DNA of 64,000 nucleotides from Vicinamibacterales bacterium. Its GTDB lineage: Bacteria; Acidobacteriota; Vicinamibacteria; Vicinamibacterales; UBA8438. The position numbers and the translations under genes were made by a program. How positions within the stretch are numbered: the stretch's first letter is position 1; each line of letters starts with the position of its first letter. The notes under the pieces were generated by a model that was given only the letters and a program-made list of their open reading frames with translations, searched no databases and was not told where the DNA came from. The stretch covers positions 562,323-626,322 of the forward strand of contig OZ252008.1 in assembly GCA_965246995.1 (NCBI GenBank). Reading direction: 5' to 3'. This document shows, piece after piece, positions 2,339 through 13,499 of this stretch.

Positions 2339-3082
2339 CTAGCGCCCGTCCCACTGTTCGAGCATCCAGTTGCCCGCGTCCTGCAGGGACGGAACGTAGC
2401 TGCCCATGTTGAAGTGACCGATCCCTTCGAGGGTCGTGAAGGCGACCGGGTGGCCGGCTGCCTCGAGGCGCTGGAACGCCTCCTCGGCGGGTTCGAAGGG
2501 GACCACTTCATCGACGCGGCTATGGATGATGTGGATCGGCATGGTGCCGAAGGCGTCGGGCGCGTGGTCACCGGGGCGGCCCGCGATGGGGATGGCGCCG
2601 GTGAAGAAGTCGGAGTGCTGCCCCGCGAAGAACCATGTGCCGGCGCCGCCGAGGCTGAAGCCGGTCACGAGGATGCGCGACCGGTCGATCGTGTAGTCGT
2701 CGAGGATCTGCTCGAGCAGCGCCATCACCCCCCGATCGGCTACCTCGGAGGTCCAGCGGCGGGTCGGCACGTCGGGGGCGACCATGATGGCGCCGAGCTC
2801 GCGCAACCCCGGCGCGAAGATGCCTTGCATGTTCCGGCTGCCGTAGTACGCGCCGTTGATGCCGCCGGGGTGGAGCGCCAGGACGAGCGGGCGCGGCTCG
2901 CCCGCCGGGTCGTAGCCGGCCGGCACCGATACGGCGTAAGGCATCTCGCCGTGGCCGTCGATCGTGAAGACCAGATGCTCCATCGTGGGACGTCCTCCCT
3001 GGAATGGGAGAACTACTGCTGTACTGGCTGCCGTCAGTCCCGCCCCCACGATCAGAATGCCGACTGACCGAATGGTACGCAT
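2339..3082 (-). CDS. Secreted alpha/beta-hydrolase (esterase/depolymerase-like)
   Basis: 247 aa with an N-terminal hydrophobic signal, the nucleophile elbow GFSLGG and a C-terminal His region (GIGHF). The stop codon is the reverse TAG of the CTAG flank of MITE copy A. Confidence 0.75.
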   Translation of the reverse strand: MRTIRSVGILIVGAGLTAASTAVVLPFQGGRPTMEHLVFTIDGHGEMPYAVSVPAGYDPAGEPRPLVLALHPGGINGAYYGSRNMQGIFAPGLRELGAIMVAPDVPTRRWTSEVADRGVMALLEQILDDYTIDRSRILVTGFSLGGAGTWFFAGQHSDFFTGAIPIAGRPGDHAPDAFGTMPIHIIHSRVDEVVPFEPAEEAFQRLEAAGHPVAFTTLEGIGHFNMGSYVPSLQDAGNWMLEQWDGR

Positions 3083-3265
3083 TCCGTTGTCCTCCTCAGT
3101 GGCCGCGCGATGCCAAGCTGCACCCGCCGCATGGTAACGTATCGATTTCGGATCGACGTGATCCCGCTGCTCAACTGTAGACCTAAAATTTCGTCCAGGA
3201 CTCGACGTGACCTGCCACTGGCGCTATATTCTTCGTAGCGTTCCACCGCGTCACCTACCGGAGAG

Positions 3266-4486
3266 GTGCCGGGTGTTCGGTGCAGCAAAGCGCGCCTCCG
3301 CGACGATATCACTTGTCTGACGGTGCCGAAGCACAGTCACGAAATCAGGGATCCGATTCACGTCTTTGTGCGTTTGGACAGCACAGAGCGCGATGTCCTC
3401 AATTCTGCTCCGTTTCAGAGGCTCCGCCACATTCATCAGCTCGCTCTGACGTACCTCGTGTATCCGGGGGCCACCCACCGCCGATTCGAGCACTCACTTG
3501 GCGTGATGGAGCTCGCGAGTCGAATCTTTGATGTCGTGACTAACCCCGCCAACATCAGCGAGGAAATCTCCAACCGCTTGGACGAAATTAGCCAGCCGGC
3601 TAAGCTTCAATACTGGCGTCGCGTCCTGAGGATGGCCGCTCTGTGCCATGATATGGGCCATCTTCCGTTTTCTCATGCCGCCGAGAAGGAATTGCTGCCT
3701 AACGGGTGGGACCACGAACGCATCACACGTAGCATTATAGATAGTGAAGAGATGCGGTCCATTTGGAATGGTATGACTCCGCCTCTTCGATCCGCGGACG
3801 TTATTAAATTGGCCATAGGGCCCACGAAGACAGACGACCTTGAGTTCTCAGAATGGGAAGCGATTCTCGGCGAGATCATCGTAGGAGATGCTTTCGGCGC
3901 TGATCGGATGGACTATCTTCTTCGAGATTCCCATCACGCCGGTGTCGCGTATGGCCGGTTCGATCACTATCGCTTGATTGACACATTGCGTATTTTGCCG
4001 GCAAAGGATATCGCGGGGGAAGAGCAAGTCGGAACACCCGCTCTCGGATTACAAGAAGGAGGACAGCAGTCTGCCGAGGCATTGTTACTCGCACGCTATT
4101 TTATGTATTCACAGGTCTATTTTCATCCGGTCCGTCGAATCTACGACATTCACCTCATGGAATTTCTGAAGGAATCGCTGGACGGAGGAACGTTTGCGAC
4201 AGATCCTGTGGACCACTTGCGTTTAACTGACAACGAAGTTACCGCTGCGTTCGTCGAGGCCGCTGGAAACAAGAATGCACGAGGTCATATTCACGCCAGT
4301 CGAATTGTCCAGCGACGGCACTTCCGACGCGTCTATGGACGGAATCCGGTGGATCTTGAGCGGAATCTTGAACCGGGAAGAGCCATATACCAAAGCGTTG
4401 TGCGGCGTGTTGGGGGCGGAGAACGTGAGACACGATCGCCGGCGACCGGGAGGGGGGTCGCCGGATTTTCCGATATTGCTTCATAA
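3266..4486 (+). CDS. SAMHD1-like HD-domain phosphohydrolase (COG1078-type putative dNTP triphosphohydrolase)
   Basis: IRDPIHVFVRL...FQRLRHIHQLALTYLVYPGATHRRFEHSLGV...CHDMGHLPFSH...GADRMDYLLRDSHHAGVAYG match the SAMHD1/YwfO-type HD motifs. An alternative GTG start lies at 3323. The gene sits in a lower-GC stretch. The 3' end may be frameshifted (see findings). Confidence 0.8.
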   Translation: MPGVRCSKARLRDDITCLTVPKHSHEIRDPIHVFVRLDSTERDVLNSAPFQRLRHIHQLALTYLVYPGATHRRFEHSLGVMELASRIFDVVTNPANISEEISNRLDEISQPAKLQYWRRVLRMAALCHDMGHLPFSHAAEKELLPNGWDHERITRSIIDSEEMRSIWNGMTPPLRSADVIKLAIGPTKTDDLEFSEWEAILGEIIVGDAFGADRMDYLLRDSHHAGVAYGRFDHYRLIDTLRILPAKDIAGEEQVGTPALGLQEGGQQSAEALLLARYFMYSQVYFHPVRRIYDIHLMEFLKESLDGGTFATDPVDHLRLTDNEVTAAFVEAAGNKNARGHIHASRIVQRRHFRRVYGRNPVDLERNLEPGRAIYQSVVRRVGGGERETRSPATGRGVAGFSDIAS

Positions 4487-4591
4487 CGATGAGGTTGTTC
4501 CCGCTACTTTGGCGTCGGAAGCGTTGGGGCAGATTCCCGCGGTGTCGGTAGATAACGTGTTCGTCGAACCGTCGAAGCAAAGAGAGGCTGG

Positions 4592-4749
4592 GAGTCCGTG
4601 GTGAAACCCCGGGTAGCACCGAGAGCGGCGAGGCGCTCGCCTGACAAGGCGCGACGAGGAAGCATATTGGCCATATGAGACCGAGGAGCAACGCCGTTCA
4701 GGCGGGATGCATCGCCGCTCGAATGTAGCGGGGGTTTCACCACGGGCTC
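4592..4749 (-). mobile_element. MITE-like palindromic element, copy B (short form, 158 bp, inverted orientation)
   Basis: Same family as copy A. Termini are GAGTCCGTGGTGAAACCCC ... GGGGGTTTCACCACGGGCTC. It is flanked by the direct repeat CTGG (4588-4591) and CTGG (4750-4753). Confidence 0.85.
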
Positions 4750-4808
4750 CTGGAGACTGGGTGGGTGAACATCGCGAAGAGGCGTTGAGCGAAACGGAGG
4801 GATGAGCG

Positions 4809-5351
4809 ATGGAAAGGCTCTTGGTGGCGGCACTGTTGCTGCGCTTGATTCGGGCGCAGAAGGAAGAAGGAAGCCCGGGCGGCGAGACCCATATTCAGAA
4901 GGCTGTCTATTTTCTGCAGGAGTTGATGCAAGTCCCGTTGAATTTTCGGTTCATCTTGTACCGATACGGACCGTATTCCTTTGAGCTTAGAGATGCGCTC
5001 ATGAGCTTGAGGGCGGATGGGTTGGTTCGACTTGAACCACAACGTTCGGTGGGAGCCAAGATCGTTCCGACGGAGCGCGGTGTGCGGTTCTTGGACTCGC
5101 GGCAAGCGGCGCTTGGGAAGTGGATGGCTAGAATCGAGTTCGTAGCAAAGGCGTTGGGAAGGAATGGCGCGCTCGGCTTGGAACGGCTTGGGACAGCGTA
5201 TTTCGTCACGCACAGGGCGACGATCGAAGCGACGGTTCAGGATCGAGTGAAGGAAGTGAGACGGCGTAAACTGCATATCACGGCGAACGACGCGAAGGAA
5301 GCGGTGGAGTGGGCGGACCGCATTACAGAGCAAGCGGCGACGGTCCGATAA
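4809..5351 (+). CDS. YwgA-like / winged-helix-type small protein, putative partner of the HD phosphohydrolase
   Basis: 180 aa. HIQKAVYFLQELMQVPLNFRFILYRYGPYSFELRDALMSLRADGLVRLE resembles the YwgA pattern (LQK.vY...F.f..YGPYS.EL) as I remember it. A GGAGGG ribosome-binding site lies 8 nt upstream. The 3' end overlaps gltX by 43 nt. Confidence 0.5.
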   Translation: MERLLVAALLLRLIRAQKEEGSPGGETHIQKAVYFLQELMQVPLNFRFILYRYGPYSFELRDALMSLRADGLVRLEPQRSVGAKIVPTERGVRFLDSRQAALGKWMARIEFVAKALGRNGALGLERLGTAYFVTHRATIEATVQDRVKEVRRRKLHITANDAKEAVEWADRITEQAATVR

Positions 5352-10565: not shown

Positions 10566-10711
10566 GCAGCCGTGCAGGGCGACCGCTCGGTTTGCGGATC
10601 AGGCTCCCCGGGCTTCGGCATGGAACTTGCGTACCTCCTTCGCATGTCGTTTTCCACTCACGGGAGGCGGCTGTCGCTACGGCCCCCGTTGCGGTAGCCT
10701 TGGAGGAAACG

Positions 10712-11272
10712 ATGATGCCGGACTTCTTGCGGATTGGCGCGGAGGTGATGATCGCGGTCGCGGCGATGCTCACCGTTCTCTGGCGTTTCAACGATTCGCT
10801 CGGTAAGGAGTTGCGCGCGGACATCAGGGTGCTTGGTACCGAGTTGCGCGGTGACATCAGCACTCTCGGTACCGAATTGCGCGGTGAAATCGGAGCACTC
10901 GATACCGAGTTGCGCGGTGAAATCGGGGCGCTCGATGGCAAGTTGTCCGGTGACATCAGGACACTCGGCACCGAGTTGCGTGGTGAAATCAAAACGCTCG
11001 GCACGGAGTTGCGCGGTGAAATCGGGGCACTCGATACCAGGTTCTGCGGTGAAATCGGCACGCTTGGCACGGAGTTGCGTGGTGACATCAGTGCTTTGCG
11101 TGTGGACAACAGAGAGCTGCTCGCCCGAGTGTCAAGAATTGAGGGGCTTCTTGAACTTCGCGCAGAACCGCGCACGAAGGTGGGCGCCACTCAGTCGTCG
11201 TCCGGGTCCAGTCCGGCGGACGATCGCGATGACCCCAAGGAGGATGCGGACAACGCTGTCGCGGGCGGTTAA
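10712..11272 (+). CDS. N-terminally membrane-anchored protein made of 11-residue (hendecad) tandem repeats
   Basis: The ATG at 10712 follows a GGAGGA site. A TM helix (FLRIGAEVMIAVAAMLTVLW) is followed by nine repeats of the type LGTELRGEIGA and an acidic disordered tail. The track ORF start at 10592 is probably too far upstream. Confidence 0.65.
   Translation: MMPDFLRIGAEVMIAVAAMLTVLWRFNDSLGKELRADIRVLGTELRGDISTLGTELRGEIGALDTELRGEIGALDGKLSGDIRTLGTELRGEIKTLGTELRGEIGALDTRFCGEIGTLGTELRGDISALRVDNRELLARVSRIEGLLELRAEPRTKVGATQSSSGSSPADDRDDPKEDADNAVAGG
10808..11104 (+). repeat. Nine tandem 33-bp repeats (consensus GAGTTGCGCGGTGAAATCGGGGCACTCGATACC), in frame in the CDS
   Basis: Unit boundaries counted by hand are 10808, 10841, 10874, 10907, 10940, 10973, 11006, 11039 and 11072. 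Confidence 0.9.
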
Positions 11273-11750: not shown

Positions 11751-13499
11751 TCAGAGTGATTCCCGCAGATACCGCTCGCCGGTCCATTCCGGCGCCTGCT
11801 GATTGTGCTTTAGTCGCACGCGCTGCAGGGCCAGACCGGCGTAGTAATCATCGAGCCGGTCGCTGGCGTGTGCCACACCGGGCAGGCTCGCGGCGGCTTC
11901 CAGGGCGAAGCGGTCGGCAAGGAGCGGGTTCGGCGCGGTGCGGTACGCGCCATTCCACCAGTCGTAGATTCGCTCCTCCGCCTGGCGCAGGATCTGGTCT
12001 CCCGGCAGGAGATTGCGCTTCTCGTGCTGATTGACCTGCCGGTGTGCCGGCATCAGGTTCCAGAGGTCACCGCAGGGCCAGATCGCCCACGGGAAGCAGT
12101 GATCAATGTCGAGGGTTTGGCCTGAGAGCCGGCGACCGGTCCAGACACATTGCAGCGATCCCGTGGCCAGGAGGCGGTCGGCCTGTTCGCGGGCCACACG
12201 AACATCGCGTTCCGGCTCCATCCAGCTCATGGCGTGCGCAAGCGTCCGCTCGTCAAGCGAACGTCCCTGCCGGCCCGCGTACTCGTGCATGAGCAGCTTC
12301 CATTCCGCGACGATCGCTGGCTCGATCCAGACGCTCAGGCGCCGGATCGCCATCCATAGATGCATGGGAACGCGCAGCGTGCCGAAGCTCGCCAGGTAGG
12401 CCGGGGTCAAGCCTCCATCAACCGGCCGGGAGGGCTTGCTCGTCGTGCCCTCGTGGCGGACCGGAAGAATGGGATCGCTACTGTTCGGATAGGTCATGTA
12501 GCGAACCGGCATCCTCACGATCGTCGAGGTGACATCGGACAGGGCCCGGTGCAGCGCCGAAACGGTGTCGCGCGTGAACCGCGCACCCACCCGCAGATCG
12601 TGGTGAGAGACGTCCAGCCCTTCGACGCCATCCTGTTTGACGAACCCCAGTTTGTGGCCGGCGTGATCGTTGACCGGACTCTGCGGAATGTCCGCGTCGA
12701 GGAGCGGTTTGTAGAGTCGAATCCACGTCAGGGCGACGAGTCCCATCGGGATCGTGACATGGTCCTGATCCTGTTCCTCGGCGAGACCGAACGCGCCGTC
12801 GGCGATGCGGCAGAGCACGCGGAGCAGGCCCAGCTTGTAGGTTGAACTCTTCGAGTCGTTCAGGATGACGTTGCGGAGTAGCGGGAGCGCATCTGTCCCG
12901 TCGTCCGGGAGGCGGATCGCAACCTGGCTCCAGCGGACATCGCCGCGGCCCATCTGATCGTCGCCCGTCGCCTCCCGTTCCACGTACGCGCCGTGGTCCC
13001 GCGCGAGGCGGCGGAGTTCGGCAACCGTGACGGGGTGGAAGCCGCGGTTGTCTTCATCGGGTCCGTCGCGGAGGGTGATCGCGAGGAGACCGCCGGGCTT
13101 GAGCAGGGTGATCAGTTTGCGGAAGGCGCGAGGTCGATCCGTCGGGGCGAGGTGCATCCAGACCGCGCTCACGAGGATGACGTCGAACGAAAGGCCGGTC
13201 GAGAAGGTCTGCTTGAGCGCGGGAAGGCGGTCGTCGAGCCAGGTTATGGAACAGTCGGCGTGTCGGGCCCGGCCGAACTCCCGCATGCCGTCGGACGGCT
13301 CGACGGCGACGACGTCATAACCCATCCGGGAGAGTTGCGCGGCGTCGCGCCCGCTGCCGGCGCCCACGTCGAGGATGGCGGCGGGCGATGTCGGGAGCAG
13401 GTCGGCGAGCCAGCCGTGGACACGCTCGAAGGAGGTCGACTCGTAGCGCGCCGTGGCGGTCTCGGCGTGGGCGTTGTACCAGGCTATCGCGTCAGTCAT
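11751..13499 (-). CDS. Fusion protein with an N-terminal class I SAM-dependent methyltransferase, a central uncharacterised domain and a C-terminal HNH nuclease
   Basis: ILDVGAGSGRDAAQLSRMGYDVVAVEPS...VILVSAVWMHL...LLKPGGLL is the Rossmann SAM motif I and post-I region. The centre reads SKSSTYKLGLLRVLCRIA. The C-terminus reads LDIDHCFPWAIWPCGDLWNLMPAHRQVNQHEKRNLLP (HNH). 582 aa. Confidence 0.7.
   Translation of the reverse strand: MTDAIAWYNAHAETATARYESTSFERVHGWLADLLPTSPAAILDVGAGSGRDAAQLSRMGYDVVAVEPSDGMREFGRARHADCSITWLDDRLPALKQTFSTGLSFDVILVSAVWMHLAPTDRPRAFRKLITLLKPGGLLAITLRDGPDEDNRGFHPVTVAELRRLARDHGAYVEREATGDDQMGRGDVRWSQVAIRLPDDGTDALPLLRNVILNDSKSSTYKLGLLRVLCRIADGAFGLAEEQDQDHVTIPMGLVALTWIRLYKPLLDADIPQSPVNDHAGHKLGFVKQDGVEGLDVSHHDLRVGARFTRDTVSALHRALSDVTSTIVRMPVRYMTYPNSSDPILPVRHEGTTSKPSRPVDGGLTPAYLASFGTLRVPMHLWMAIRRLSVWIEPAIVAEWKLLMHEYAGRQGRSLDERTLAHAMSWMEPERDVRVAREQADRLLATGSLQCVWTGRRLSGQTLDIDHCFPWAIWPCGDLWNLMPAHRQVNQHEKRNLLPGDQILRQAEERIYDWWNGAYRTAPNPLLADRFALEAAASLPGVAHASDRLDDYYAGLALQRVRLKHNQQAPEWTGERYLRESL

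What the first reader, a model, noticed from the sequence alone, without database searches (positions are those of the whole stretch)
11751..13499. Single polypeptide fusing a small-molecule-type SAM methyltransferase to an HNH nuclease
The 582-aa protein has an N-terminal class I methyltransferase domain (ILDVGAGSGRD...VEPS...LKPGG). This is the Methyltransf_11/25-like kind and lacks the (D/N/S)PP(Y/F) motif of DNA N-methyltransferases. A central region (...SKSSTYKLGLLRVLCRIADG...IPMGLVALTWIRLYKPL...) reminds me of the N-terminal recognition modules of some HNH restriction-like proteins. The C-terminus is an HNH motif (DIDHCFPW...WNLMPAHRQVNQHEKRNLLP). Pairing a methyl-donor domain with a nuclease in one chain suggests a self-contained modification/restriction-like or nucleic-acid-modifying conflict protein. 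I cannot place it in a described defence family.
Basis: partly seen in the sequence, partly recalled or inferred. Interest (0 to 1): 0.58.

Follow-up and report, generated by a model that had tools for sequence, protein, structure and literature searches.

The report
Uncharacterised methyltransferase–HNH defence nuclease family
The gene is real and encodes one protein that joins a SAM-methyltransferase domain, a previously undescribed middle domain and a Cas9-type HNH nuclease. It belongs to a large, unnamed family that sits in bacterial anti-phage defence islands, often next to DNA-phosphorothioation genes or modification-dependent restriction enzymes, and nobody has tested what it does.

Summary
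Window 11751-13499 (-) encodes a 582-aa protein with three parts: a class I SAM-methyltransferase domain (aa 1-197), a family-specific middle domain (aa ~203-445) and a Cas9-type HNH nuclease with an intact D466-H467...N481...N490 motif.

The fusion is not a mis-assembly. More than 160 full-length homologues share it, at least 483 species-level genomes encode a relative, and all three domains are under purifying selection (dN/dS about 0.17).

No Pfam, NCBIfam, PADLOC, PDB or literature entry describes the family. The middle domain matches nothing, and it is not the sulfur-binding domain of ScoMcrA-type enzymes.

Gene context points to defence. The gene's neighbours vary and it also occurs on plasmids and integrative elements. 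It is almost absent from phages.
- In 11-12 of 80 genome loci it abuts SspABCD or DndA/DndC phosphorothioation genes, in at least four arrangements.
- In 15 other loci it abuts or is co-oriented with a SauUSI-like type IV restriction gene.
- Elsewhere it lies beside McrBC or HNH_2 nucleases.

The window copy is solitary, in a housekeeping context.

Best reading: a restriction-type DNA nuclease whose accessory SAM domain has an unknown role. I rate it a new variant of a known kind. Function is untested.

The parts
11751..13499 (-). Whole gene: 582-aa methyltransferase / middle domain / HNH protein, stop codon 11751-11753
   Evidence: ORF. Full-length homologues. dN/dS 0.16-0.18 against L009-L012.
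12909..13499 (-). N-terminal class I SAM-methyltransferase domain (aa 1-197)
   Evidence: Pfam Methyltransf_25/11/23/12 at E 1e-14 to 7e-12; TehB weak. Foldseek best matches are small-molecule class I methyltransferases such as 3h2b, 3e23, TehB and TPMT. It shares invariant residues with ~200-aa stand-alone methyltransferases. pLDDT 80-95.
13344..13370 (-). SAM-binding motif I, DVGAGSGRD (aa 44-52)
   Evidence: G46 and G50 are invariant in A1, A3 and A4; G48 is invariant in A1 and A4 and nearly invariant in A3; R51 and D52 are invariant or nearly so.
12894..12911 (-). Conserved junction LPDDGT (aa 197-202) between the methyltransferase and middle domains
   Evidence: P198 D200 G201 are invariant in A1. 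Stand-alone methyltransferases end just before this motif.
12165..12893 (-). Family-specific middle domain (aa 203-445), presumed nucleic-acid recognition module. It starts with helix / helix / beta-hairpin / helix and carries the motif R209..D215.K217..Y221-K222
   Evidence: Model m1c3374f75e99, pLDDT 92.4. Invariant R209 K217 K222 G253 W259. No Pfam, PDB or BFVD match. Not SBD, DUF3427 or DUF4007 by hhalign.
12000..12164 (-). Cas9-type HNH (HNH_4) nuclease domain (aa 446-500)
12099..12104 (-). Catalytic D466-H467 of the HNH motif
   Evidence: Invariant in A1, A2 and A3. Aligned with SpCas9 D839-H840.
11754..11999 (-). C-terminal helical extension (aa 501-582) with conserved WW514-515, F531, E534 and the terminal QQxPEW motif

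Best explanation
The gene encodes a member of a large, unnamed family of single-chain defence-island endonucleases.

Shown:
- The core is a family-specific middle domain plus a Cas9-type HNH domain with all catalytic residues. This core also exists as a free-standing ~385-aa protein in cyanobacteria, Deinococcus and Hymenobacter.
- An N-terminal SAM-binding class I methyltransferase domain, derived from a family of ~200-aa stand-alone methyltransferases, is fused at a conserved LPDDGT junction.
- All three parts are under purifying selection.
- The family is carried by chromosomes, plasmids and integrative elements but hardly at all by phages.
- It recurs next to DNA-modification-based immunity genes: SspABCD, DndA/DndC, SauUSI-like and McrBC type IV enzymes, and HNH_2 nucleases.

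Inferred:
- The middle domain recognises a feature of DNA, more likely a modification or structure than a variable sequence, because the domain is highly conserved.
- The HNH domain then nicks or cleaves that DNA, so the protein acts as a restriction-type barrier to phages and plasmids.
- The methyltransferase domain is an accessory module that couples nuclease action to SAM, either as an allosteric SAM switch or by methylating the target.

The window copy is a solitary, vertically inherited copy in a Vicinamibacterales-like genome. It works without an adjacent partner, or with one encoded outside the 64-kb window.
For: Architecture and catalytic residues.

Family size and fixed architecture: 483 genomes; 1313 representatives at 50% identity.

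Selection: dN/dS 0.16-0.18, similar in all three domains.

Defence context:
- Ssp/Dnd genes confirmed by PADLOC and NCBIfam.
- SauUSI-like mREase_IV at E 1e-213 to 1e-225 in 15 loci, with arrangements from co-oriented and abutting to flanking variable PDC-M26/PDC-M60 genes or a Gabija-like gene pair.
- McrBC next to the gene on Roseomonas p546-5.
- Two HNH_2 nucleases flanking it in Azospirillum ramasamyi.
- An integrase/Prim-Pol island in Mesorhizobium.
- A toxin-antitoxin pair and a bona fide PT-DNA restriction endonuclease nearby in L001.

Absence from phages.

Modularity: methyltransferase-less middle+HNH proteins match the family profile at E 1e-38 to 1e-43. Stand-alone methyltransferases share the invariant residues.

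Precedent: HNH nucleases embedded in PT-modification neighbourhoods have been proposed as alternative restriction components (PMC10853773).
Against: - No experiment exists for any member.
- The window copy and its closest relatives sit among housekeeping genes (cupin, CitMHS, TrkA/TrkH, gltX/glnS) with no defence gene adjacent. A 406-aa HD protein lies ~7.3 kb away (3266-4486); it was not scanned against PADLOC. No Ssp/Dnd gene is present anywhere in the 64 kb.
- Most loci have no recognisable partner.
- The substrate of the middle domain is unknown, and DNA binding is inferred only from the fold start and conserved basic residues.
- The role of the methyltransferase domain is unresolved. Type IV-like enzymes do not need SAM.
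- Clustering in defence islands is correlative.
Confidence: 0.5

Rival explanations
1. The protein is a component of phosphorothioate (PT) DNA systems. It is either the PT-sensing effector that takes the place of SspE/SspFGH/DndFGH, or the DNA-targeting nickase of a reduced modification module. The candidate modules are DndA + short DndC + X, and SspC + SspD + X lacking the SspB nickase. Solitary copies such as the window's would work with PT genes elsewhere in the genome, or be orphans.
For: - 11-12 of 80 species-level loci have Ssp or Dnd modification genes directly adjacent.
- There are at least four arrangements. Full sspABCD lies convergent, 33 bp away, in L044, and L059 is the same type. 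sspC-sspD lies divergent in L001/L015/L017/L025. Cysteine desulfurase-SspB-SspD-190aa-X lies on one strand in L005. DndA-DndC(386 aa, above the TIGR03183 cutoff)-X lies on one strand in L007/L028/L031.
- The PT-linked copies fall in several subclades of the Acidobacteria clade that also holds the window's lineage.
- Background is low: 6.3% of gut genomes carry any dnd/ssp genes (PMC12914056 abstract).
- No SspE-like protein was recognised in the complete Ssp loci.
- A 42%-identical methyltransferase domain lies inside a dnd locus in Rhizobium phaseoli.
- Methyltransferase-less relatives sit next to PT-DNA-restriction-like HNH genes in Tolypothrix and Deinococcus.
Against: - About 85% of the first sample and 0 of 80 loci of the distant clade have no PT gene within 8-10 kb.
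- The 64-kb window has none.
- The solitary lineage is still under purifying selection.
- PT loci next to X look partly decayed while X stays intact: SspC fragments in L013/L014/L017/L025, and fragments in L052 of the unknown gene (cluster 'c27') that lies upstream of sspA in the complete loci.
- The middle domain shows no relation to the sulfur-binding domain or to SspB/DUF4007.
- PT-dependent HNH enzymes are themselves often found in dnd loci, so adjacency does not show dependence.
Confidence: 0.2
2. The protein is a self-contained restriction-modification enzyme. The methyltransferase domain marks host DNA and the HNH domain cuts unmarked DNA, both guided by the shared middle domain.
For: - Methyltransferase, putative recognition domain and nuclease are fused in one chain.
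- Most copies are solitary and so must be self-sufficient.
- All domains are under purifying selection.
- The SAM-binding motifs are conserved.
Against: - No DPPY-type or PCQ-type DNA-methyltransferase motif occurs in 163 members.
- The closest relatives of the methyltransferase domain are ~200-aa stand-alone enzymes in housekeeping contexts that share the same invariant residues.
- The putative recognition domain is highly conserved rather than diversified like a target-recognition domain.
- The middle+HNH core exists without any methyltransferase. That would be lethal for an enzyme that cuts unmodified DNA.
Confidence: 0.1
3. The protein is a SAM-level guard acting by abortive infection. The methyltransferase-fold domain holds SAM and keeps the HNH domain off. 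Phage SAM-degrading enzymes, which disarm SAM-dependent R-M/BREX-type systems, would release the nuclease.
For: - The SAM site is conserved.
- The methyltransferase domain is an add-on to an autonomous nuclease core.
- The gene lies next to other immunity systems that it could back up.
- From my own knowledge, guards that sense anti-defence activities are a known theme, for example PARIS and PrrC.
Against: - There is no direct evidence.
- Residues beyond the SAM site that are shared with stand-alone methyltransferases (Y8, H28, W87, W114, H116, R152, W190) suggest a retained acceptor pocket, hence catalysis rather than pure sensing.
- From my own knowledge, its commonest partners (PT systems, type IV enzymes) are not SAM-dependent.
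Confidence: 0.1
4. The protein is not a defence gene. It would be a housekeeping nucleic-acid or small-molecule enzyme that happens to carry an HNH domain.
For: - The window and its relatives L006 and L009-L012 share broadly similar housekeeping surroundings, although the immediately upstream gene is not conserved in L009-L012.
- The gene is tightly spaced between a cupin gene and a small membrane-protein gene, with 24-bp and 22-bp gaps.
- Many loci have only metabolic neighbours.
Against: - Distribution is patchy: 483 of 185,579 species genomes.
- Neighbours vary widely.
- The gene is carried on plasmids and integrative elements.
- It is repeatedly juxtaposed with restriction and defence genes in unrelated arrangements.
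Confidence: 0.07

Closest known systems
ScoMcrA/EcoWI-type PT-dependent type IV restriction endonucleases (sulfur-binding domain + HNH; NCBIfam NF045808)
   Same: Single-chain sensor-domain + HNH logic. Mostly solitary genes in defence islands. Often found inside or beside dnd/ssp loci. A bona fide member lies about 5 kb from the homologue in L001.
   Different: Different HNH subfamily: HNH_4 (Cas9-type, DH..N..N) rather than HNH_2. The middle domain has no detectable relation to the sulfur-binding domain, hhalign probability 0.2%. No SRA domain. The extra N-terminal SAM-methyltransferase domain has no counterpart.
SspE, the PT-sensing effector of SspABCD (DUF262 NTPase + DUF1524 HNH-like nickase; domain composition from my own knowledge and PMC9646914)
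   Same: Occupies the position next to sspABCD in some genomes (L044, L059, L074). Two-part sensor/regulator + His-Me nuclease design. A nucleotide-type cofactor domain is fused to a nickase-type nuclease.
   Different: No DUF262 or DUF1524 match. The cofactor domain is a SAM methyltransferase fold, not a ParB-like NTPase. Most members, the window copy included, have no Ssp genes nearby.
HNH domain of Cas9 / Pfam HNH_4
   Same: Best sequence and structure match for aa 446-500. D466-H467, N481 and N490 align with SpCas9 D839-H840, N854 and N863. This suggests one-metal, single-strand cleavage chemistry.
   Different: No RuvC domain, no guide-RNA-binding lobes and no CRISPR context. The similarity covers one domain only.
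Type IIG/IIC fused restriction-modification enzymes, e.g. MmeI and BpuSI (from my own knowledge)
   Same: Methyltransferase, recognition module and nuclease in one polypeptide. Self-sufficient single gene.
   Different: Those use gamma-class N6-adenine methyltransferases with NPPY/DPPY and PD-(D/E)XK nucleases, and their target-recognition domains are hypervariable. Here there is no DPPY, the methyltransferase is of the small-molecule type, the nuclease is HNH, and the middle domain is conserved.
TehB / TPMT-like and other Methyltransf_25/11 class I methyltransferases, including ~200-aa stand-alone homologues in Azospirillum, Paraburkholderia and Streptomyces
   Same: Fold, SAM motifs and a shared set of invariant residues, at 40-42% identity to the stand-alone proteins.
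   Different: Those are free-standing enzymes with no nuclease. All named NCBIfam models score far below their cutoffs. The acceptor substrate is unknown for both.
MADS mad2 (PADLOC PDLC04134)
   Same: Local hit at E 8e-17 between aa 25-174 and model positions 277-420, the methyltransferase-fold region.
   Different: mad2 is the predicted N6 DNA methyltransferase of an eight-gene operon (bioRxiv 10.1101/2023.03.30.534895). There are no other PADLOC hits, no mad genes were seen among the neighbours examined, and only one domain is shared.
SauUSI-like type IV enzyme (PLD nuclease + SF2 helicase + DUF3427; PMC3141236). This is the recurrent neighbour, not a homologue.
   Same: Genetic partner in 15 loci, down to 36-37% identity between the partner proteins.
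   Different: No sequence or profile similarity to the protein studied here.

Membership tests
HNH (beta-beta-alpha-Me) nuclease superfamily, HNH_4/Cas9 subfamily | Profile match to HNH_4 | tested here: met
   Window protein E 1.2e-4, 22.4 bits against cutoff 22. 37 of 37 diverse members match, best E 2.2e-10.
HNH (beta-beta-alpha-Me) nuclease superfamily, HNH_4/Cas9 subfamily | Catalytic D-H ... N ... N residues present and conserved | tested here: met
   D466, H467 and N481 are invariant and N490 is at least 90% conserved. They align with SpCas9 D839/H840/N854/N863.
HNH (beta-beta-alpha-Me) nuclease superfamily, HNH_4/Cas9 subfamily | Metal-dependent nuclease activity | not testable with these tools
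   Needs purified protein.
Class I SAM-dependent methyltransferases (Methyltransf_25/11) | Rossmann-fold profile match, GxGxG motif I and an acidic residue after beta-2 | tested here: met
   E 1e-14. G46 and G50 are invariant across A1, A3 and A4; G48 and E67 are invariant in A1 and A4 and conserved in A3. Foldseek TM about 0.7-0.77 to 3h2b/3e23.
Class I SAM-dependent methyltransferases (Methyltransf_25/11) | SAM binding and methyl transfer | not testable with these tools
   Needs biochemistry.
DNA amino- or C5-methyltransferases of R-M systems | Motif IV (D/N/S)PP(Y/F/W), or the PCQ catalytic motif | tested here: not met
   None in the window protein and none in 163 full-length members.
Type IIG/fused R-M enzymes | Hypervariable target-recognition domain among homologues | tested here: not met
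   The middle domain is conserved. Whole-protein identity is 57-65% across phyla, with many invariant middle-domain columns.
PT-dependent type IV HNH enzymes (ScoMcrA/EcoWI, NF045808) | Sulfur-binding domain (PF26340) N-terminal to the nuclease | tested here: not met
   No Pfam or NCBIfam hit. hhalign probability 0.2% against a 57-sequence SBD-HNH profile.
PT-dependent type IV HNH enzymes (ScoMcrA/EcoWI, NF045808) | HNH_2-type nuclease domain | tested here: not met
   The nuclease is HNH_4. The SBD-HNH profile does not align to it.
SspE (Ssp effector) | DUF262 NTPase + DUF1524 nuclease domains | tested here: not met
   No such Pfam or PADLOC hits.
SspE (Ssp effector) | Encoded next to sspABCD | tested here: inconclusive
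   Met in L044, L059 and L074 and partly in L001-type, L005, L052 and L055. Not met in the window or in most loci.
MADS (mad1-8) | Full-length match to a mad protein | tested here: not met
   Only aa 25-174 match positions 277-420 of the 492-position mad2 model.
MADS (mad1-8) | Presence of the other mad genes (mad6-8 mandatory) | not tested
   The window neighbours were scanned against Pfam only and look like housekeeping genes. The locus neighbours scanned with PADLOC gave no mad hits.
Any PADLOC v2 defence system or candidate | Profile hit over the nuclease or middle domain | tested here: not met
   The single hit covers the methyltransferase part only.

The most novel reading that the evidence does not exclude
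The TehB/TPMT-like methyltransferase domain S-methylates a sulfur-containing DNA modification. The candidates are the phosphorothioate made by the adjacent Ssp/Dnd enzymes, or a thiolated base made by the cysteine desulfurase + PP-loop ATPase pair in the three-gene DndA-DndC'-X operon. That would create a methyl-thio DNA mark, or a labile phosphotriester, which the fused HNH domain reads or exploits. This would be a new DNA-modification chemistry coupled to a nuclease in one chain. A related reading is 'mark and destroy': the protein methylates invading DNA and the adjacent SauUSI-like methyl-directed enzyme then cuts it. That is similar to what has been proposed, but not shown, for the Ambrosia system.
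Probability: 0.06. Interest if true: 0.9.

Novelty: new variant of a known kind. Interest (0 to 1): 0.6.

Why it matters
If the reading holds, this is a widespread restriction-type nuclease family that no annotation pipeline or defence-finder recognises. At least 483 species-level genomes carry it and it has more than 1300 clusters at 50% identity. Databases label it only as 'methyltransferase'.

Its domain combination is unprecedented among described defence proteins: a SAM-methyltransferase fold, a new domain and a Cas9-type HNH.

Its repeated linkage to phosphorothioation modules that lack their usual partners (no SspE, sometimes no SspB or SspC, or only DndA+DndC) bears on an open question in the PT field. 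Most PT modification loci lack DndFGH, so what restricts DNA there (PMC10853773)?

The family also offers a compact, well-folded HNH nickase scaffold with a new recognition domain. Cultured hosts are available for direct tests: Roseomonas mucosa, Azospirillum ramasamyi and A. oryzae, Sphingobium yanoikuyae and Pseudoalteromonas sp. THAF3.

Tried and rejected
- Mis-assembly or two genes: rejected.
- Middle domain is the sulfur-binding domain: rejected at profile level, hhalign probability 0.2% or less, and there is no Pfam PF26340 hit.
- Middle domain is DUF3427 or any part of the SauUSI-like neighbour: probability 0.1%. Middle domain is DUF4007/SspB: probability 0.1%.
- PT genes in the window: none found by tblastn with ten neighbour proteins from the PT-linked loci, including cysteine desulfurase, SspB/DUF4007, SspC, SspD and DndC.
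- A universal partner gene: clustering of neighbours in 160 loci found none.
- Phage origin: one partial hit in 2.9 million viral contigs. The only hit among 50,697 phage genomes is a stand-alone methyltransferase.
- The first genome-contig scan with the single protein found nothing because its patterns were too specific. The alignment-based scan worked.
- The unknown 690-850-aa gene upstream of sspA in the complete Ssp loci (my neighbour cluster 'c27') as a hidden SspE: no Pfam, PADLOC or PDB-sequence match.
- Stand-alone methyltransferase homologues as a general PT marker: only the Rhizobium phaseoli one lies in a dnd locus. Three others are in housekeeping contexts.
- Literature: nine full-text searches or readings found no description of this architecture.
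Full report
OBSERVATION

The window carries an ATG-initiated ORF at 11751..13499 on the minus strand, encoding 582 aa.

Pfam places Methyltransf_25/11/23/12 on aa 24-163 (E 1e-14 to 7e-12). TehB matches weakly. HNH_4 matches aa 451-499 just above its gathering score (E 1.2e-4). NCBIfam gives only sub-threshold hits to assorted small-molecule, protein and tRNA methyltransferases such as CpaM, the daptide methyltransferase, UbiG, PCMT and TehB. PADLOC gives a single local hit of aa 25-174 to the methyltransferase part of MADS mad2. PHROGs gives nothing of note.

The protein has no [DNS]PP[YFW] or PCQ motif. Neither do the first 210 residues of 163 full-length homologues.

A REAL, FIXED ARCHITECTURE

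A search of 5.8 billion proteins returned 3223 hits. The 120 best are 57-100% identical, nearly all 570-596 aa (three are shorter), and cover about 99% of the query. They come from Acidobacteriota, Proteobacteria (including a cultured Mesorhizobium) and Chloroflexi assemblies, and are named only 'methyltransferase domain-containing protein'.

A word-index-free search with aa 200-582 found 1313 cluster representatives at E<=1e-3. Most are proteins of about 560-590 aa in which the match begins near residue 200. The shorter ones mostly still start with fragments of the methyltransferase domain, so they are truncated gene calls.

An alignment-based scan of one genome per species found relatives in at least 483 genomes. 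These include Vicinamibacterales, Bryobacterales, Paracoccaceae, Rhodothermales, Poriferihabitaceae, Myxococcota and a cyanobacterium, and many are sponge-associated MAGs. The window's closest relatives are Vicinamibacterales (82-88% identity).

Against those relatives dN/dS is 0.16-0.18. It is alike for the methyltransferase part (about 0.19), the middle part (about 0.16) and the HNH/C-terminal part (about 0.15). Mis-assembly and pseudogene explanations are excluded.

THE THREE PARTS

(i) Methyltransferase domain. Motif I (DVGAGSGRD), E67 after beta-2, the W87..D90.L92-P93 motif and S111-A-V-W114-M-H116 are conserved even among members only 31-43% identical. One member has an eroded motif I.

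Structurally it resembles small class I methyltransferases: 3h2b, 3e23, UbiG, TehB and TPMT.

Plasmid records contain ~200-aa stand-alone proteins 40-42% identical to this domain, in Azospirillum, Paraburkholderia and Streptomyces. They share Y8, H28, G46/48/50, D52, E67, W87, D90, P93, W114, H116, R152 and W190, and they end exactly where the fusion protein continues with the conserved junction LPDDGT. Three of them lie in housekeeping contexts. One, in Rhizobium phaseoli pRphaN831b, carries an N-terminal membrane segment and lies inside a dnd locus. That locus comprises DGQHR protein 1, the methyltransferase, TusA, an FtsK/DndE-like protein, DndD, a small protein, DndC and an HNH gene.

(ii) Middle domain (aa ~203-445). 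With a 37-sequence alignment of members 28-48% identical, AlphaFold gave a confident model of aa 200-582 (pLDDT 92.4, pTM 0.92). The domain starts helix / helix / beta-hairpin / helix. It carries the invariant or near-invariant residues R209, D215, K217, Y221 and K222, followed by G253, W259 and Q273.

(iii) HNH domain. All 37 diverse members match HNH_4. The family profile hits Cas9 HNH domains at E 5e-5, aligning D466-H467, N481 and N490 with SpCas9 D839-H840, N854 and N863. D466, H467 and N481 are invariant and N490 is at least 90% conserved.

Modularity. Proteins of ~385 aa in Tolypothrix, Nostoc, Leptolyngbya, Hymenobacter and Deinococcus plasmids match the middle+HNH profile end to end (E 1e-38 to 1e-43) and have no methyltransferase domain. 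The nuclease core is therefore autonomous, and the methyltransferase domain is an added module.

CONTEXT

The window copy lies between a cupin gene and a small membrane-protein gene, with 24-bp and 22-bp gaps. Around it are CitMHS, TrkA/TrkH, a decarboxylase, a beta-lactamase-like hydrolase and glnS/gltX. Its closest relative L006 has the same genes around it; the more distant L009-L012 share only part of this neighbourhood. None of the ten neighbour proteins from the PT-linked loci (cysteine desulfurase, SspB/DUF4007, SspC, SspD, DndC and others) finds a match anywhere in the 64 kb.

Elsewhere the neighbours change constantly, and no gene accompanies the family universally. Two associations recur.

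First association: phosphorothioation genes. In 11-12 of 80 species-level loci the gene abuts these genes, identified by PADLOC and NCBIfam. The arrangements are:
- a complete sspA-sspB-sspC-sspD operon convergent with it, 33 bp away in L044; L059 is of the same type;
- SspA-SspC-SspD without SspB (L074);
- SspD next to it in L052 and L055;
- sspC-sspD divergent from it (L001=L018, L015, L017, L025);
- cysteine desulfurase-SspB-SspD-190aa-X on one strand, without SspC (L005);
- a three-gene DndA-like / short DndC (386 aa, 334 bits against cutoff 290) / X operon (L007, L028, L031);
- a lone cysteine desulfurase downstream (L062).

On a tree these PT-linked copies fall in several subclades of the Acidobacteria clade that also contains the window's lineage. 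Given that only about 6% of genomes carry any dnd/ssp genes (PMC12914056 abstract), chance adjacency is very unlikely.

No SspE-like protein was recognised in the complete loci.

Several of the neighbouring PT genes look fragmented while X is intact: SspC in L013/L014/L017/L025, and in L052 the unknown gene that lies upstream of sspA in the complete loci (my neighbour cluster 'c27'). Some of this may be long-read indel error.

Second association: a type IV restriction gene. In a second, distant sample of 80 metagenome loci, 34-60% identical to a distant member, none has PT genes. Instead, 14 of them, plus L047 from the first sample, carry a ~1040-1077-aa PLD + SF2-helicase + DUF3427 protein next to X. 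PADLOC calls it mREase_IV at E 1e-213 to 1e-225. This is the SauUSI architecture (PMC3141236).

The pair occurs co-oriented and abutting in both orders (L096; L114/L119/L157), and divergent (L092, L047). It also occurs flanking two variable genes: PDC-M26A, PDC-M60A/B/C, or an AAA_15/OLD-TOPRIM + UvrD pair resembling Gabija. The association persists down to 36-37% identity between the partner proteins and appears in at least five lineages of the tree.

Other contexts:
- McrBC, VapBC and another HNH gene on Roseomonas p546-5;
- two HNH_2-type nucleases flanking it in Azospirillum ramasamyi;
- PLD + HNH_2 genes and an integrase in L008;
- an integrase/Prim-Pol/AAA_25 element in Mesorhizobium;
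- a bona fide PT-DNA restriction endonuclease, MazEF and an AAA_21/DUF3226 pair in L001.

The methyltransferase-less relatives in Tolypothrix and Deinococcus sit next to PT-DNA-restriction-like HNH genes.

The family is essentially absent from phages. There is one partial hit in IMG/VR, and only a stand-alone methyltransferase among 50,697 phage genomes.

INTERPRETATION

Shown:
- the architecture, intact nuclease and SAM motifs, and selection on all domains;
- an autonomous middle+HNH core;
- mobile, patchy distribution;
- repeated juxtaposition with DNA-modification-based immunity genes.

Inferred:
- the protein is a restriction-type DNA endonuclease;
- its conserved middle domain recognises a DNA feature, more likely a modification or structure than a variable sequence;
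- its HNH domain nicks or cleaves;
- the SAM domain is an accessory regulator or modifier.

I give this reading about 0.5.

The main rival (0.2) is that the family is specifically a component of PT systems, either as effector or as nickase. For it: multiple independent operonic arrangements, loci that lack SspB, SspC or SspE, and the R. phaseoli methyltransferase. Against it: most copies have no PT gene within 8-10 kb, none of the distant clade does, the window has none in 64 kb, the solitary lineage is still under selection, and there is no sulfur-binding-domain-like module. HNH nucleases inside PT-modification neighbourhoods have precedent as proposed alternative restriction components (PMC10853773).

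The methyltransferase is not of a DNA type. Its relatives are housekeeping-context stand-alone enzymes. The presumed recognition domain is not hypervariable. A methyltransferase-less core exists.

A SAM-depletion guard gets 0.1 and a non-defence housekeeping role gets 0.07. Both remain possible.

COMPARISON WITH KNOWN SYSTEMS

In logic it resembles the single-chain sensor+HNH type IV enzymes (ScoMcrA/EcoWI) and SspE. It fails their membership tests: no sulfur-binding domain, no HNH_2, no DUF262 and no DUF1524. It is a member of the HNH_4 nuclease and class I methyltransferase superfamilies only at domain level. It is not a MADS component.

No paper in the searchable library describes the architecture. 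I therefore rate it a new variant of a known kind: a restriction-type defence nuclease with an unprecedented domain combination and a new domain. Its function is entirely untested.

The most novel reading still open is that the TehB/TPMT-like domain methylates a sulfur-containing DNA modification made by the neighbouring enzymes. A variant of this reading has it marking DNA for the adjacent methyl-directed enzyme. I give this about 6%.

LIMITS
- There are no experiments.
- Neighbour analysis used crude ORF calling in high-GC DNA and loci of +/-8-10 kb.
- Whole-genome co-occurrence with PT genes could not be computed.
- The sensitive fold libraries were unavailable.
- The two locus samples are biased towards the query's and one distant member's relatives.

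Noticed in passing
window 3001-5351 (ORFs 3266-4486 + and 4809-5351 +): A low-GC islet (0.56 against about 0.67 elsewhere) holds a 406-aa HD + HD_assoc_2 protein, which looks like a dNTP triphosphohydrolase. It also holds a 180-aa ORF with no Pfam match. This may be a small acquired, possibly defence-related, insert about 7 kb from the gene studied. In Pseudoalteromonas THAF3 the homologue lies next to a dGTPase gene.
   Followed up: partly
window 10592-11272 (+), repeats 10799-11091: A 226-aa ORF with an N-terminal hydrophobic segment contains about 9 copies of a 33-bp unit, an 11-aa repeat (LGTELRGEI-type), 73-79% matches. The only hit is a sub-threshold Pfam match to Baculo_PEP_C.
   Followed up: partly
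L044 18553-20628 (-), L059 15057-17600 (-), L074 14444-15487 (-); fragments in L052 and L032: A 690-850-aa protein family encoded just upstream of sspA in the complete Ssp loci has no Pfam, PADLOC or PDB-sequence match. Fragments of it lie next to the methyltransferase-HNH gene in loci that have lost the Ssp genes. It is a candidate unknown Ssp partner.
   Followed up: partly
L100, L111, L158, L109, L112 (between the methyltransferase-HNH gene and the convergent SauUSI-like gene): The two conserved genes bracket a variable two- or three-gene cargo: PDC-M26A-like, PDC-M60A/B/C-like, an AAA_15/OLD-TOPRIM + UvrD pair resembling Gabija, or unknown proteins. This looks like a defence hotspot whose flanks are themselves defence genes.
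   Followed up: partly
L172 (Rhizobium phaseoli pRphaN831b, record 117.5-126.8 kb): An unusual dnd locus. It holds DGQHR protein 1, a membrane-anchored class I methyltransferase, a TusA-like sulfurtransferase, an FtsK-like translocase with a weak DndE-like N-terminus, DndD, a small protein, DndC and an HNH endonuclease.
   Followed up: partly
L005 4129-9716; L074; L001/L015/L017/L025: Reduced Ssp modules. L005 has cysteine desulfurase-SspB-SspD plus an unknown 190-aa protein but no SspC. L074 and the L001 group have SspC-SspD but no SspB. These are either decaying loci or variants in which another protein supplies the missing function.
   Followed up: no
L006 (P0003), residues ~290-345 of the homologue: The 86%-identical homologue has an internal stretch that diverges abruptly and then returns to register. 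This looks like a pair of compensating frameshifts. It could be long-read assembly error or early decay.
   Followed up: no
L170 6726-8146, L176 5690-7131, L177 5612-7131: The methyltransferase-less middle+HNH genes are each preceded by a small ORF of 79-94 aa on the same strand. In Hymenobacter it is annotated as a DNA-binding protein. It may be a conserved small partner or regulator.
   Followed up: no
Loci L009-L088 record titles: Many carriers are sponge-associated MAGs (Poriferihabitaceae, the SB066x, jk18x and p16x bins) and marine Paracoccaceae. This suggests ecological enrichment in symbiont genomes.
   Followed up: no
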